A stretch of 64,000 nt of DNA from a virus (taxonomy: Duplodnaviria > Heunggongvirae > Uroviricota > Caudoviricetes): the IMG/VR virus record IMGVR_UViG_2537561935_000012. One strand, given 5' to 3'. Below the pieces are notes generated by a model that saw only the letters and a list, made by a program, of their open reading frames with translations, made no database searches and was not told the origin of the DNA. Numbering within the stretch: the first letter of the stretch is position 1; each line of letters starts with the position of its first letter. Below, in pieces: positions 9,392 to 12,752 of this stretch. The translations under genes and the position numbers were made by a program.

Positions 9392-9652
9392 TTATCTCAC
9401 CTCCAGTCTCCATACCGCCTGACCAATCCGGCTGGCATGGGTATCTTTGGATACTGTTCCATCTTTAGCCATCTCCATAAGAATTTTGCGCAAATCTGCC
9501 GAACGCCATTCTTCATCAGGAAATTCCTTCTCCATTGCCAACCGCAGATTCCAGGTTGCCATCCTGAATGGATATTCCCCGCCGAGAGCTTTATCTTGCA
9601 GGGCAGCCCGGGAACGCATCACCTGCAAAACCTTCTCTTTTACATCCATCAT
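9392..9652 (-). CDS. hypothetical protein
   Basis: about 86 aa from internal Met; ATGA overlap with upstream stop. Confidence 0.35.
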   Translation of the reverse strand: MMDVKEKVLQVMRSRAALQDKALGGEYPFRMATWNLRLAMEKEFPDEEWRSADLRKILMEMAKDGTVSKDTHASRIGQAVWRLEVR

Positions 9653-10452
9653 TTCGCCTCCTGCGGCGGTTCTGGTAGCGGCATCCAGTACAAGGCGTTC
9701 CCTAACCACGATAAAGTGCCGTCGCTCAACTCCACGTATTCCCCTTGTACCTGTCCTGCCATATACTCGCCGTGCTTTGAATAAATTAAAATCCAATCAT
9801 CTTGAGCGGGCATTCGCTCACTACAGCTTATCCAACCATCCGGAGTTACCGGATAGTTGCCATTCACAAGGTCAGCTCGAACATATAGCGTGTCATCATG
9901 GTGCTGATTGTGGCTGCACCACGTTAATTCGCTTAACTCGCCATCTTCTGGCCATACTCCAGCTGTTTGCAGCCAGATATGGGCTGGCGCATCTTGGCAA
10001 GGTGTATTAACTGGCAACTTGTAAGTTTGGCTTACAGGTTGGCTACCCTGAAGCATGGCAGCGTGGCAGGCATCCTCAACGTTCTTCACTGCATCTGCGC
10101 AGTAGTTATAGCGATTGCATTCCACTAATTTCTGCTTGAGGTTTTCAATTGCTAACTCGATTTCATCCGGCACTACCGGCTCTGGTTGGATAGTGACGTT
10201 GGCAAAGGCAGCACGCAAACCGGCCTTAATTTCCTCTACTTCATCAGCGCCTAGCGATGAATCTGACAATGCGTGATGGAATGCGTAAGCCATGTCGTCG
10301 TTTACTGCAACCGGTTCTGCTTCCAGCGATGCCAGAGCAATTCGTGCCAGTTCTTCCGCTTCTTCTGCTGGCAGTACAACGTTGCTACCAGGTCCGTATG
10401 TTTCGCGCCACTGCTTGATTGTCAGCAGTCGCTCTTTGGTAATAGTGATCAT
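9649..10452 (-). CDS. hypothetical protein with DUF551-like C-terminal domain
   Basis: 267 aa; C-terminal W..D.LP pattern common in prophage proteins. Confidence 0.5.
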   Translation of the reverse strand: MITITKERLLTIKQWRETYGPGSNVVLPAEEAEELARIALASLEAEPVAVNDDMAYAFHHALSDSSLGADEVEEIKAGLRAAFANVTIQPEPVVPDEIELAIENLKQKLVECNRYNYCADAVKNVEDACHAAMLQGSQPVSQTYKLPVNTPCQDAPAHIWLQTAGVWPEDGELSELTWCSHNQHHDDTLYVRADLVNGNYPVTPDGWISCSERMPAQDDWILIYSKHGEYMAGQVQGEYVELSDGTLSWLGNALYWMPLPEPPQEAK

Positions 10453-10964
10453 GCCGCGTTTCCTTCTTTCTTATTAACAATTACACCGTCATATATTTCA
10501 TTAAGGTGCCCTCTCAACTCCATGCGCCTTAATGCAGATAACATGTAATCGCATTCAACCTGCTTATTTCCAGTAAATGGCTTATCGTCAGGATTACCCC
10601 AACAGCAATTACCCTTGGGCCACCCATGTACTTTCCGTACTCTTCCGTTAACAACGTGAAGTAATCCCCAGCCAGGTGGTAAATCCTCAACTGAAATAAT
10701 TCCCGGCTCACTAATAAAGAATCGCCAGTCGCCCATTCCAAGAGATGGATTTTTACGAAAACGCTTTTTTCTATCTGCCAACAAGTCAGCACGAGAACAC
10801 TTCGCCTCTATCAGGCATGATGCTGAATTTCTGAATCCCATAGCATCTGGCTGTTCTCCGGTACTGGTTACAGCTATAAAGCGGTCATGAAAACAAACCT
10901 TGAACCCGTTGCGCTTAAGGAACTTATACGCAATCTGACAGAGTTCGCGGTGTGTTAACGCCAT
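10449..10964 (-). CDS. hypothetical protein, possible PD-(D/E)XK-like nuclease
   Basis: about 171 aa from MALTHRELCQ with GGAG RBS; D..IEAK motif; weak. Confidence 0.4.
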   Translation of the reverse strand: MALTHRELCQIAYKFLKRNGFKVCFHDRFIAVTSTGEQPDAMGFRNSASCLIEAKCSRADLLADRKKRFRKNPSLGMGDWRFFISEPGIISVEDLPPGWGLLHVVNGRVRKVHGWPKGNCCWGNPDDKPFTGNKQVECDYMLSALRRMELRGHLNEIYDGVIVNKKEGNAA

Positions 10965-10965
10965 A

Positions 10966-11154
10966 TCACTCTCCTTTAGTGCGCAAGTGGTTTTTCCAGC
11001 GGTTTTGCGCCGCGCTGGGCTTTTTGCAAAAACCACAATCCATCATCCCGTAATATTTCATCAACCCCATCCGTCGGTTGCTGAGTCTCACCCACTGCCA
11101 GACGCCAGGAGCGTTTCTACGAACTAACAGAATCTTTGCTTTACGGTTTTTCAT
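10966..11154 (-). CDS. small Arg/Lys-rich protein, 62 aa
   Basis: starts MKNRKAK; ATGA overlap with upstream small ORF. Confidence 0.3.
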   Translation of the reverse strand: MKNRKAKILLVRRNAPGVWQWVRLSNRRMGLMKYYGMMDCGFCKKPSAAQNRWKNHLRTKGE

Positions 11155-11327
11155 CTTACAGCGTACCCTTTCTTCCGCCTGTTCTGTGACGCAGTAGGCT
11201 TACGCTTTGCGGCAAAAGCCACCTGACCAAATGGATGGAGTACCGCTATCTTATGGTTGCTAATAACCAGCTCCACCACACGCACAGGTCGCTGTAAAAA
11301 AAGTCGTTTTGCCTTACGGTTTTTCAT
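11151..11327 (-). CDS. small Arg/Lys-rich protein, 58 aa
   Basis: also starts MKNRKAK; too short for the ORF track; translationally coupled. Confidence 0.3.
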   Translation of the reverse strand: MKNRKAKRLFLQRPVRVVELVISNHKIAVLHPFGQVAFAAKRKPTASQNRRKKGYAVR

Positions 11328-11500
11328 CGCTTTGCTCTCCTGCGTCTCTTTGCTGCTCGTCGTGCCGCTGCAATACCGGTATGGCGGCGCTTTGGTGCCG
11401 GGATGATGTTGTCAGCCATCAGGACATACGGCTTTGCAATTAGCGCAGAAGCCCAAAAACGAGTCGGGTACGGTAACAAGCCGATACATGCCACACGCAT
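11324..11500 (-). CDS. small basic protein, 58 aa
   Basis: AAGGAGG RBS; TAATG overlap with upstream stop; C-terminal RRAAKRRRRAKR. Confidence 0.3.
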   Translation of the reverse strand: MRVACIGLLPYPTRFWASALIAKPYVLMADNIIPAPKRRHTGIAAARRAAKRRRRAKR

Positions 11501-12120
11501 TACTCACCTCCTTTGATGCGAATGCCAGCGGCGCGTGGCACATTAACTTCCACGATGCGCACAGTTGGTTTGTACATCTCAATCGCAGTCAGCCAGTCAG
11601 CGCCAGTCATGCGCTTTTCTGCATCGCCATTAGTCCACTTAACCGGTACACCAATAGCCTTCATCGCGATTTCTATTTCCCCGGCAATGGCGCTTTTTCC
11701 GCAACCAGTAAAACCAGATACAACGACCAGAACTTCACCTTTGGCTGGTTTTATTCCCCGCGCTTCCAGTTCTGCTATGCGCTTACTTCCATCCGAGATA
11801 ACACCTTCGTAATACTCACGCTGCTCGTTGAGTTTTGATTTTGCCAACTCCAGTTGTTTTGTTAGTTCCGCAATACGGCAAACATCGTTGATACGCGTTT
11901 CCTCTAATGCGTTGATCTCATCCAGTAGTGCCAGCACGGTTTCTGGTCCGGCCAGAAATTTGAAGGCGTTGAGGGCATCAATATCAACACCGCTATCTTT
12001 AAGTTCCTGTTCGCTTATCAGAGCATCATCAACTGGCAACATTAACAGGCGTTCCATTGCCGGAATTGCACGCTCTGCCGCCTCACGCAGTGCCTGATAG
12101 TCAATTGTCATTCTCGCCAT
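11500..12120 (-). CDS. hypothetical protein
   Basis: 206 aa; coiled-coil N-terminus. Confidence 0.5.
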   Translation of the reverse strand: MARMTIDYQALREAAERAIPAMERLLMLPVDDALISEQELKDSGVDIDALNAFKFLAGPETVLALLDEINALEETRINDVCRIAELTKQLELAKSKLNEQREYYEGVISDGSKRIAELEARGIKPAKGEVLVVVSGFTGCGKSAIAGEIEIAMKAIGVPVKWTNGDAEKRMTGADWLTAIEMYKPTVRIVEVNVPRAAGIRIKGGE

Positions 12121-12752
12121 CCTTCACAGTTGTAATCACTACAGCCTTCAAAATCATATGGGCTGTACTGCCAGGTTATTTTTCCGCAATGCGGACAATT
12201 CCAACGCACCTTCCCGCTTCGCGACTTCTTTCTTCTGTTCTGCTCTTTCAACCAGTCAGGCATGACCAAACCTGCGCCCTGAACCATTGTTCTGCGGTTA
12301 AAGTTATTGATATTGAACGTCCGACGCTTTGCTGCATCAGCAATGGAAAATGGCAACCAAACTATTCCTGGTTCGTTTTTGTTGGCGACGCTAAAGATGG
12401 TCGCTTTACTGAAGTCATCTGTTGGCAATCCACCGTGTTGAAGCCAGTAAACATCGTTGCCGTTCCAGCTACCTTTTTTGTAGGCCACATACGCAGTGCA
12501 ATCTGACTCAATCAGGCTTTCTGTGGGGATGTACTGGCAATCAACGTGCCACACAGCCATTGCATCCACGCTATCAGCGCAAACAGGCTGATCGATATCT
12601 CGTCCACAATTCCAGGCTTTTTGGGCTTCTTCCAGCGTGTAAACATGAGCGCGATCGATATCAGAACTGTAACCATTGCCGTTATGGCAATGGAATGAGG
12701 CGTTATTACCCACAGTTTCACGCAAGCACATCATGTAAAAGCGGTTATTCAC
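12108..12752 (-). CDS. hypothetical protein with C-terminal zinc ribbon
   Basis: 214 aa; CPHCG...C..YNCEGW. Confidence 0.5.
   Translation of the reverse strand: MNNRFYMMCLRETVGNNASFHCHNGNGYSSDIDRAHVYTLEEAQKAWNCGRDIDQPVCADSVDAMAVWHVDCQYIPTESLIESDCTAYVAYKKGSWNGNDVYWLQHGGLPTDDFSKATIFSVANKNEPGIVWLPFSIADAAKRRTFNINNFNRRTMVQGAGLVMPDWLKEQNRRKKSRSGKVRWNCPHCGKITWQYSPYDFEGCSDYNCEGWRE

What the first reader, a model, noticed from the sequence alone, without database searches (positions are those of the whole stretch)
10966..11500. Three translationally coupled small Arg/Lys-rich ORFs, two paralogous
Three ORFs of 58, 58 and 62 aa are chained by TAATG and ATGA overlaps between two larger genes. The second and third both begin MKNRKAK and the first ends RRAAKRRRRAKR. 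Only one reached the ORF-track size cutoff. Such peptides could be nucleic-acid-binding, leader peptides or small regulators.
Basis: seen in the sequence. Interest (0 to 1): 0.4.

Follow-up and report, generated by a model that had tools for sequence, protein, structure and literature searches.

The report
Three small basic phage accessory genes
The three chained mini-ORFs are real, conserved genes for tiny, very basic proteins found in many E. coli temperate phages; databases already list them as hypothetical proteins, so the finding is correct but ordinary and their function is still unknown.

Summary
On the minus strand, ORF1 (11324-11500, 58 aa), ORF2 (11151-11327, 58 aa) and ORF3 (10966-11154, 62 aa) are chained by TAATG, ATGA, ATGA and TGAtATG. 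They lie between an Ea22-like gene and a 171-aa gene, in a lambdoid-type accessory operon carried by a P1-like phage-plasmid.

All three are protein-coding. In ungapped comparisons of relatives, pN/pS is 0.30 (ORF1), 0.12 (ORF2 type) and 0.21 (ORF3 type), against about 0.9-5 in the shifted frames and 0.07-0.18 for neighbouring genes. Invariant Ser and Arg residues are kept through switches between codon families.

ORF2 and ORF3 are diverged paralogues (37% identity, E 5e-10) of phrog_1380. ORF1 is the unrelated phrog_13831. The exact proteins occur on at least 1000 public contigs each, always named hypothetical.

phrog_1380 forms arrays of one to three copies. It has a near-invariant N-terminus (MKNRKAK), a core SN(R/H)(R/K) motif, eight divergent cores, and a C-terminal tail whose type depends on what follows. 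Its ends coincide with mosaic junctions that carry the next gene's ribosome-binding site.

No Pfam, NCBIfam, PADLOC, PDB, Rfam or fold match was found. The best guess, untested, is nucleic-acid binding (pI 11-12, net charge +14 to +15).

The parts
11500..12120 (-). Upstream gene: Ea22-like protein of 206 aa. It has an Ead_Ea22 N-terminal domain and a C-terminal half with the Walker-A-like motif GFTGCGKS, and ends ...AAGIRIKGGE*. This conserved tail encodes the ribosome-binding site of ORF1.
   Evidence: Pfam PF13935 E 7.4e-22. The tail ...GIRI(K/N)GGE* recurs in front of ORF1 in many contexts.
11506..11511 (-). Shine-Dalgarno GGAGGU, 5 nt upstream of the ORF1 start. The TAATG stop/start overlap lies at 11498-11502.
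   Evidence: Read from the sequence. Relatives have TAATG or TAGTG (GTG start) at this point.
11324..11500 (-). ORF1, 58 aa, pI 12.0, net charge +14. It belongs to phrog_13831. The N-terminal two thirds are moderately hydrophobic and Pro-rich with no transmembrane segment; the C-terminus is an Arg-rich predicted helix (HTGIAAARRAAKRRRRAKR).
   Evidence: phrog_13831 E 1.1e-41 over the full length. pN/pS is 0.30 in this frame against 2.8 and 0.9 in the shifted frames, from 35 distinct ungapped DNAs. In-frame length variants of 51, 52, 56 and 60 aa exist. AF2 pLDDT 65 with helices at 11-22, 24-28 and 40-57. A unit follows ORF1 directly in 79 of 79 loci.
11337..11341 (-). Shine-Dalgarno AGGAG, 9 nt upstream of the ORF2 start. 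It lies inside the codons of the ORF1 basic tail. The ATGA overlap is at 11324-11327.
   Evidence: Sequence. The junction ...AGACGCAGGAGAGCAAAGCGATGA is conserved in relatives.
11151..11327 (-). ORF2, 58 aa, pI 12.0, net charge +15. It is an internal unit of phrog_1380 (core type FLQRP) with the 'B' tail ...KPTASQNRRKKGYAVR*.
   Evidence: phrog_1380 E 6.5e-23. pN/pS 0.12 against 2.9 and 5.4 in the shifted frames. B-tail units are followed by another unit through ATGA in 40 of 40 distinct contexts. RefSeq annotates it as WP_000797289.1.
11166..11172 (-). Weak Shine-Dalgarno-like GAAAGGG, 11 nt upstream of the ORF3 start. The ATGA overlap is at 11151-11154, so ORF3 probably depends on termination-reinitiation coupling.
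   Evidence: Sequence. The dependence on coupling is an inference.
10966..11154 (-). ORF3, 62 aa, pI 11.3, net charge +14. It is the terminal unit of phrog_1380 (core type VRRN) with the 'A' tail ...KPSAAQNRWKNHLRTKGE*.
   Evidence: phrog_1380 E 1e-40. pN/pS 0.21 against 1.3 and 1.4. Conserved residues are kept through synonymous changes and codon-family switches. RefSeq annotates it as WP_000797279.1. The AF2 model is low-confidence alpha-beta3-alpha.
10962..10976 (-). Junction AAGGAGAGUGAUAUG. The last codons of ORF3 (K-G-E-stop) form the Shine-Dalgarno site (AAGGAG, 10971-10976) for the downstream gene; TGAtATG lies at 10962-10968.
   Evidence: Sequence. The same junction precedes at least 10 unrelated downstream genes in other phages.
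10449..10964 (-). Downstream gene, 171 aa from the ATG at 10964 (the 195-aa GTG form in the ORF list overlaps ORF3). It matches phrog_631 and has a PD-(D/E)XK-like motif, PDAMGF...IEAK. It is context, not part of the small-ORF family.
   Evidence: phrog_631 E 1.4e-94 and phrog_9263 E 2.6e-123. pN/pS 0.07.

Best explanation
These are three genuine, separately translated small protein genes in a tightly packed minus-strand accessory operon of lambdoid 'ea/exo-xis' type, carried here by a P1-like phage-plasmid. ORF1 (phrog_13831) and one to three tandem copies of a roughly 60-aa unit (phrog_1380; ORF2 and ORF3 here) form a co-inherited module. The module sits directly after an Ea22-like gene and before a variable gene. 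Shown: the frames are under purifying selection; the units are diverged paralogues; the unit ends and the ORF1 tail coincide with conserved mosaic junctions that carry the next cistron's ribosome-binding site; the C-terminal tail type is set by what follows. Inferred: expression runs down the chain. ORF1 and ORF2 have good Shine-Dalgarno sites, while ORF3 has a weak one and probably relies on termination-reinitiation at ATGA. Most likely function (inference from composition only, about 0.35): the products are soluble, extremely basic mini-proteins (net charge +10 to +18 across the unit family) that bind nucleic acid, or an acidic host partner, as dispensable early accessory factors. Candidate contact surfaces are the Arg-rich C-terminal helix of ORF1 and the conserved NRK / SN(R/H)(R/K) / QNRWKNH motifs of the units. 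Confidence by step: real coding genes about 0.93; translational coupling about 0.7; nucleic-acid binding about 0.35.
For: Coding: 99 of 104 distinct unit DNAs from about 236 loci keep a 58-65 codon frame, while the other five frames average 1.3-4 stops. Invariant residues persist through codon-family switches: Ser26 AGC/AGT/TCA, Arg59 CGC/AGG/AGA, Arg67 in five codons; Lys, Ala, Leu, Asn and Gly positions show synonymous variation. Ungapped within-subtype pN/pS is 0.12-0.45 in frame, against about 0.5-5 in most shifted-frame comparisons. ORF1 gives 0.30 against 2.8 and 0.9. Accepted neighbouring genes give 0.07 and 0.18. Module: ORF1 is followed by a unit in 79 of 79 loci. Arrays of one, two or three units are joined by ATGA. 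The tail rule holds 40 of 40 and 0 of 95. Body/tail chimeras exist. Upstream genes are Ea22-like with a conserved ...GIRI(K/N)GGE* end. Basic and soluble: pI 10.8-12.0 for all 74 unit variants, with no 19-residue hydrophobic window above 1.05. AF2 predicts an Arg-rich helix at 40-57 in ORF1. The mRNA has no special fold (z 0.06) and no Rfam match. There are no internal promoter-like or terminator-like sites.
Against: There is no direct evidence of expression here, and no evidence at all about function. Pfam, NCBIfam, PADLOC, PDB sequence search and Foldseek found nothing. Both AF2 models are low-confidence (pLDDT 61 and 65). Some lineages carry frameshifted versions: the ORF1 basic tail is replaced by an acidic alternative-frame tail in a protein seen on 95 contigs, and the unit core is read in another frame in P0054 and P0060. 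So neither the basic tail nor the core is indispensable everywhere. Part of the end conservation may reflect DNA-level roles (ribosome-binding site, recombination junction) rather than protein function. PGAP often skips ORF1.
Confidence: 0.55

Rival explanations
1. The ORFs are mainly translational relays or junction spacers. What is selected is the DNA or mRNA at the ends (ribosome-binding sites, stop/start overlaps, short homologies that let modules recombine). The peptides are by-products with little function of their own.
For: The last codons of the Ea22-like gene, ORF1 and ORF3 are the Shine-Dalgarno sites of the next cistron. Tail type depends strictly on what follows. The ends are far more conserved than the cores, of which eight types exist. 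Body/tail chimeras and ORF1 presence/absence variants break exactly at these junctions. Frameshifted variants persist. Homologous recombination at short conserved boundary sequences is a recognised model for phage mosaicism (PMC3233612).
Against: Purifying selection acts along the whole length and within each core type (pN/pS 0.12-0.45). It acts on both halves of ORF1 (0.29 and 0.33). The central SN(R/H)(R/K) motif, far from any junction, is kept through AGC/AGT/TCA serine codons. QNRWKNH is kept with four synonymous and no nonsynonymous differences between the AHKNG and VRRN types. The downstream gene has its own strong ribosome-binding site and does not need a relay.
Confidence: 0.2
2. The true genes are the longer annotated versions in another register (933W L0068 at 95 aa, phiV10 p51 at 90 aa, the phrog_12350-like extended forms), or the alternative-frame ORF 10976..11095. 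On this view the 58- and 62-aa ORFs are mis-called.
For: Several records annotate N-terminally extended proteins. phrog_12350 (155 aa) and phrog_9263 (230 aa) contain the unit as one end.
Against: In the window the extension frames are closed by stops just upstream of both MKNRKAK starts. The extension of 933W L0068 runs through the ORF1 region in a frame with pN/pS of 0.9-2.8. Shifted frames of the units contain about 4 stops on average and are open in 0 of 99 variants. Every unit has its ATG at the invariant MKNRKAK.
Confidence: 0.03
3. The units are small toxins or RNA interferases of the HicA type (about 60 aa, basic, alpha-beta3-alpha dsRBD-like fold), or another toxic host-takeover peptide.
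For: The low-confidence AF2 topology is H-E-E-E-H. HicA chains appear among the non-significant Foldseek hits (6g26, 5yrz, a BFVD HicA-like toxin; E 0.66-2.5). ORF2-type units have S-N-H, reminiscent of the G-S-H of HicA (HicA motif recalled from memory).
Against: hhalign of the family profile against E. coli HicA (sequence recalled from memory) gives probability 0.3%. There is no Pfam HicA_toxin hit at E up to 1. The histidine is absent from most units, which have SNRR. No HicB-like partner is adjacent. The Foldseek hits have TM-scores of 0.2-0.36 on a model of pLDDT 61.
Confidence: 0.04
4. The conserved element is a structured RNA or another non-coding feature on either strand, and the ORFs are incidental.
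For: A 12-nt inverted repeat lies inside the ORF3 3' part (10987-10998 and 11025-11036).
Against: There is no Rfam hit at E up to 1 on either strand. The mRNA folding energy equals that of shuffles (z 0.06). The 5' arm of the inverted repeat lies in the variable core and is not conserved in other core types. The substitution pattern has three-base periodicity in one frame only.
Confidence: 0.02

Closest known systems
PHROG families phrog_1380 (ORF2, ORF3) and phrog_13831 (ORF1), 'unknown function'; RefSeq WP_000797289.1 and WP_000797279.1
   Same: Full-length, highly significant matches (E 6.5e-23, 1e-40 and 1.1e-41). The identical proteins are on at least 1000 public contigs each. They occur in Stx phages, P1-like phage-plasmids and phiV10-like phages.
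   Different: Nothing differs; these are the same families. The additions here are evidence of selection, the array and tail rules, and the obligate ORF1-to-unit linkage.
Small proteins of the lambda / Stx-phage exo-xis region (Orf60a, Orf61, Orf63, Orf73, Ea8.5, Ea22)
   Same: Same kind of locus: short, tightly packed early accessory genes next to ea22 with modulatory, non-essential roles (PMC8614690). In 933W the small ORFs lie in the block that separates the ea22 N-part (L0069) from its former C-terminal domain (L0065).
   Different: There is no sequence or fold relationship to any of them (no Pfam or PDB hits). The proteins here are far more basic, and one family occurs in tandem arrays.
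Arginine-rich-motif (ARM) RNA-binding peptides such as lambdoid N proteins (resemblance recalled from memory)
   Same: The ORF1 C-terminus (KRRHTGIAAARRAAKRRRRAKR) is an Arg-rich predicted helix. The unit tail SAAQNRWKNH has a Trp in a basic helix, as in the lambda N ARM.
   Different: The motif is C-terminal rather than N-terminal. There is no detectable homology and no cognate hairpin was identified. Some lineages replace the tail by frameshift. This is an analogy only.
Conserved 'boundary sequences' at gene junctions of mosaic lambdoid phages
   Same: Short conserved stretches at the stop/start junctions flank non-homologous cores and non-homologous neighbouring genes. The concept is described in PMC3233612.
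   Different: Here the boundary sequences lie inside coding sequence and are also constrained at the amino-acid level.
HicA toxins (dsRBD-like alpha-beta3-alpha, about 60 aa)
   Same: Size, basic character and the predicted order of secondary-structure elements.
   Different: No profile similarity, no catalytic histidine in most members, and no antitoxin neighbour.

Membership tests
phrog_1380 (phage protein family, unknown function) | Significant full-length match to the family HMM | tested here: met
   ORF3 E 1e-40 (residues 1-62 on profile 1-62 of 62). ORF2 E 6.5e-23 (1-58 on 1-60 of 62).
phrog_1380 | Shared motifs MKNRKAK-x-L, (R/K)(I/L/V)SN(R/H)(R/K) and SA(A/S)QNR(W/R)K | tested here: met
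   Alignments of 31 and 99 members. More distant members from the 1.84-billion-protein library keep the motifs.
phrog_13831 (phage protein family, unknown function) | Significant full-length match to the family HMM | tested here: met
   ORF1 E 1.1e-41, residues 1-58 on profile 1-58 of 58.
Protein-coding gene (as opposed to a chance ORF) | Excess of synonymous over nonsynonymous change in this frame only; frame kept across divergent relatives | tested here: met
   with the baseline from neighbouring genes.
Protein-coding gene (as opposed to a chance ORF) | Direct evidence of translation (ribosome footprints or peptides) | not testable with these tools
   No expression data are available. A literature search for the peptide string found nothing.
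Leader peptide / uORF regulator | Fixed association with one regulated downstream gene; peptide sequence largely free except for stalling motifs | tested here: not met
   The same terminal unit precedes at least 10 unrelated genes. The whole peptide is under purifying selection.
HicA toxin (Pfam HicA_toxin) | Profile similarity to HicA | tested here: not met
   No Pfam hit at E up to 1. hhalign probability 0.3%.
HicA toxin (Pfam HicA_toxin) | Conserved catalytic histidine after beta-strand 1, and an adjacent HicB antitoxin | tested here: not met
   The position is Arg in 79 of 99 units. The neighbours are Ea22-like and unrelated genes.
Small hydrophobic membrane peptides (type I toxins, holin-like) | A hydrophobic segment long enough to span the membrane | tested here: not met
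   The highest 19-residue Kyte-Doolittle mean is 1.05 (ORF1), 0.86 (ORF2) and below 0 (ORF3).
ARM-type RNA-binding peptides (lambdoid N-like) | Arg-rich helix | tested here: inconclusive
   The ORF1 tail is Arg-rich and predicted helical at pLDDT about 70. Composition alone is not specific.
ARM-type RNA-binding peptides (lambdoid N-like) | Specific binding to a cognate RNA hairpin | not testable with these tools
   This needs binding assays. No candidate hairpin was identified.
Mosaic-junction 'boundary sequences' | Short conserved sequence at gene boundaries flanked by non-homologous sequence on at least one side in different phages | tested here: met

The most novel reading that the evidence does not exclude
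phrog_1380 together with phrog_13831 could be a previously unrecognised class of phage mini-proteins that bind RNA or the ribosome. They would be deployed as tandem, cassette-shuffled arrays: invariant termini serve as both functional motifs and recombination handles, and eight interchangeable cores give different target specificities. In that way they would tune host or phage gene expression alongside Ea22 in the lysis-lysogeny decision.
Probability: 0.1. Interest if true: 0.55.

Novelty: already known. Interest (0 to 1): 0.2.

Why it matters
The result mainly helps annotation. ORF1 is often skipped by annotation pipelines, and the units are often over-extended into a frame that is not conserved; this analysis fixes the correct starts and frames.

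These genes are also very common. 1263 of 5426 complete E. coli genomes hold a match, including Shiga-toxin prophages and P1-like plasmids that carry resistance genes. They lie next to ea22, a gene reported to favour lysogeny.

If these very basic mini-proteins prove to act on nucleic acids or on the lysis-lysogeny decision, that would bear on Stx-prophage induction. As it stands, they are ordinary uncharacterised phage accessory genes.

Tried and rejected
- **Family and structure libraries:** Pfam, NCBIfam, PADLOC and PDB sequence or profile searches gave no family for any of the three ORFs.
- **Structure prediction:** AF2 with family alignments gave only low-confidence models (pLDDT 61 and 65). 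Foldseek against PDB and BFVD gave nothing with E below 0.1.
- **HicA-like lead:** suggested by the alpha-beta3-alpha topology, but rejected by hhalign (probability 0.3%) and by the absence of the histidine.
- **ORF1 as a distant relative of ORF2 and ORF3:** rejected (hhalign probability 0.07%).
- **Structured RNA or non-coding element:** no Rfam hit and folding z-score 0.06. The inverted repeat is not conserved across core types.
- **Internal promoters or terminators:** none found between 9000 and 13700 on the minus strand.
- **Recent tandem DNA duplication:** rejected. Only a 21-nt repeat at the two starts is shared at DNA level, so the paralogues are old.
- **Exhaustive profile search:** the search of 1.84 billion representatives found only 45 clusters, all small proteins, and no informative domain fusions.
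- **One-genome-per-species scan:** it returned one 427-nt contig that is probably contamination.
- **Literature:** a search for the peptide string found nothing. The exo-xis papers do not discuss these ORFs.

Full report
**Observation**

The window region 10966-11500 carries three minus-strand ORFs:
- ORF1, 11324..11500, 58 aa: MRVACIGLLPYPTRFWASALIAKPYVLMADNIIPAPKRRHTGIAAARRAAKRRRRAKR.
- ORF2, 11151..11327, 58 aa: MKNRKAKRLFLQRPVRVVELVISNHKIAVLHPFGQVAFAAKRKPTASQNRRKKGYAVR.
- ORF3, 10966..11154, 62 aa: MKNRKAKILLVRRNAPGVWQWVRLSNRRMGLMKYYGMMDCGFCKKPSAAQNRWKNHLRTKGE.

The junctions can be read from the sequence:
- The upstream gene's stop and the ORF1 start form TAATG (11498-11502).
- ORF1/ORF2 and ORF2/ORF3 each overlap by ATGA.
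- The ORF3 stop and the next gene's start form TGAtATG (10962-10968).

The ribosome-binding sites, also read, are:
- ORF1: GGAGGU, 5 nt upstream of its start.
- ORF2: AGGAG, 9 nt upstream.
- ORF3: only a weak GAAAGGG, 11 nt upstream.
- Downstream gene: AAGGAG, 6 nt upstream.

Only 7 of 20000 shuffles of this stretch gave three or more long ORFs tiling one strand. ORF2 and ORF3 are 37% identical (E 5e-10). ORF1 is unrelated to them.

**Context**

The window is a P1/P7/SJ46-like phage-plasmid. The ORFs lie in a promoter-free and terminator-free run of overlapping minus-strand genes between pmgS and humD/phd-doc. This run is a lambdoid-type accessory cassette with these members:
- An Ea22-like gene directly upstream (PF13935).
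- A 171-aa gene with a PD-(D/E)XK-like motif directly downstream (phrog_631).
- An EaA/DUF551 protein.
- A PNKP-type phosphatase.

The same small ORFs occur in Stx phages (933W, VT2-Sakai, Min27 and others), in phiV10-like phages and in other P1-like elements. They are found in 167 phage records and in 1263 of 5426 complete E. coli genomes.

In 933W they lie in the block between L0069 and L0065. A published analysis interprets that block as an insertion that split ea22 (PMC8614690).

**Are they genes?**

I collected about 236 related loci from IMG/VR.

For the MKNRKAK unit:
- 99 of 104 distinct DNA versions keep a 58-65 codon frame. The five other frames carry 1.3-4 stops on average.
- Invariant amino acids are encoded by different codons, including switches between codon families: Ser26 AGC/AGT/TCA, Arg59 CGC/AGG/AGA, Arg67 by five codons.
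- In ungapped within-subtype comparisons, which carry no alignment bias, pN/pS is 0.12 for the ORF2 type and 0.21 for the ORF3 type. It is 0.14-0.45 for five further core types; the sixth had too few sequences to estimate. Most shifted-frame values lie between about 0.5 and 5.

For ORF1:
- 35 distinct 58-codon versions give pN/pS of 0.30 in frame, against 2.8 and 0.9 shifted. Both halves behave alike.
- In-frame length variants of 51, 52, 56 and 60 aa exist.
- The start is ATG or GTG, within TAATG or TAGTG.

Accepted neighbouring genes give 0.07 and 0.18 by the same method.

The longer annotated forms (L0068 at 95 aa, phiV10 p51 at 90 aa) use upstream extensions that are closed by stops in the window and are not under selection. 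They are artefacts of choosing the longest ORF.

RNA-level explanations fail: there is no Rfam match and the folding z-score is 0.06.

**Anatomy of the families**

- **phrog_1380.** It has a near-invariant N-terminus (MKNRKAK-x-L), a central (R/K)(I/L/V)SN(R/H)(R/K) motif and a C-terminal SA(A/S)QNR(W/R)K motif. At least eight very different cores lie between these motifs.
- **Arrays.** It occurs as arrays of one, two or three units joined by ATGA.
- **Tails.** Internal units carry the tail ...QNRRKKGYAVR*. In 40 of 40 distinct contexts another unit follows them. Terminal units carry ...QNRWKNHLRTKGE*. In 0 of 95 contexts does a unit follow. Instead TGAnATG leads into at least 10 unrelated genes.
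- **Chimeras.** Chimeras of one body with the other tail exist.
- **Linkage.** ORF1 is followed by a unit in 79 of 79 loci. Units occur without ORF1 in 38 of 129 contexts. In several of those the Ea22-like reading frame runs across the junction and ends 14 nt into the unit.
- **Junctions.** Upstream genes end in a conserved ...GIRI(K/N)GGE*. The ends of these small genes therefore coincide with mosaic junctions that also encode the next cistron's ribosome-binding site. This fits the 'boundary sequence' model of phage mosaicism (PMC3233612). The same codons are nevertheless constrained at the protein level.

**Function**

Nothing known matches:
- Pfam, NCBIfam, PADLOC and PDB by sequence or profile gave no hit.
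- Foldseek against PDB and BFVD gave no hit.
- The family is tiny: 45 clusters among 1.84 billion representatives. All named source records are enterobacterial (Escherichia, Salmonella), apart from one Yersinia phage and a probable contaminant contig.

The AF2 models are low-confidence. The unit is predicted as alpha-beta3-alpha at pLDDT 61. ORF1 is predicted as helices, including the Arg-rich tail, at pLDDT 65. A HicA-like lead from that topology was rejected.

What the sequences do show is extreme basicity (pI 10.8-12.0, net charge +10 to +18 in about 60 residues) and no transmembrane segment.

I therefore take nucleic-acid binding, or binding to an acidic partner, as the most likely activity, at about 0.35. 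I regard the leader-peptide idea as disfavoured. Frameshifted variants in some lineages show that these genes are dispensable accessories.

**Verdict**

The finding is correct, but it describes catalogued hypothetical-protein families (phrog_13831 and phrog_1380). The identical proteins are on at least 1000 contigs each, in an arrangement typical of temperate-phage accessory operons.

The added value here is fourfold:
- Proof of coding in the short frames.
- Corrected gene starts.
- The array and tail rules.
- The obligate ORF1-to-unit linkage.

Novelty: already known. Interest: low (0.2).

Noticed in passing
window 1-22000 (whole window context): The window is a P1/P7/SJ46-like phage-plasmid. 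The minus-strand operon from about 13770 to 6947, between pmgS and humD/phd-doc, is a lambdoid 'ea/exo-xis'-type accessory cassette that is absent or different in P1 itself and in SJ46.
   Followed up: partly
window 11500-12120 (-): The Ea22-like protein combines an Ead_Ea22 N-terminal domain (residues 5-119) with a C-terminal half carrying a Walker-A-like GFTGCGKS motif. That half gives weak APS-kinase and AAA hits (E 0.004-0.1), which suggests a P-loop domain fused to Ea22.
   Followed up: no
window 10449-10964 (-): The 171-aa downstream protein (phrog_631) has a PD-(D/E)XK-like motif (PDAMGF...IEAK) and a weak hit to a 'DNA repair protein' PHROG. phrog_9263 (230 aa) looks like a fusion of a phrog_1380 unit to this protein, i.e. 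readthrough or frameshift at the TGAtATG junction in some phages (P0153).
   Followed up: partly
L001 2869-3040 (NZ_CP142919.1); L002 2578-2846 (933W, AF125520.1): ORF1 is not annotated by PGAP in this RefSeq chromosome, nor in the original 933W record. 933W L0068 (95 aa) is the unit extended upstream through the ORF1 region in a non-conserved frame.
   Followed up: yes
window 10976-11095 (-) and relatives P0054, P0060, P0126, P0127, P0131: Some database relatives are compensated or terminal frameshift versions. In some the unit core is read in the frame of the window's 39-aa alternative ORF (GETQQPTDGV...LRDDGLWF). In others the ORF1 basic tail is replaced by the acidic alternative-frame tail ...AAIPVLQRHDEQQRDAGEQSDEKP; one such protein is seen on 95 contigs.
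   Followed up: partly
window 9649-10452 (-): This 267-aa protein is EaA-like with a C-terminal DUF551 domain. DUF551 is found fused to Ea22-like proteins in other phages (for example ST104 orf8). That matches the published view that 933W ea22 was split by insertion of the block that contains the small ORFs.
   Followed up: partly
L237 (NZ_JPLE01000252.1, 427 nt, labelled Xanthomonas pisi): This was the only hit in the one-genome-per-species collection. It is a 427-nt contig 94% identical to the unit tail and is most likely enterobacterial or phage contamination of that assembly.
   Followed up: no
window 12108-12752 (-): This 214-aa protein of unknown family has a C-terminal CxxC...CxxC stretch (residues about 166-195). 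It gives only sub-threshold hits to zinc-ribbon models such as IS1/IS1595 Zn and YnfU.
   Followed up: no
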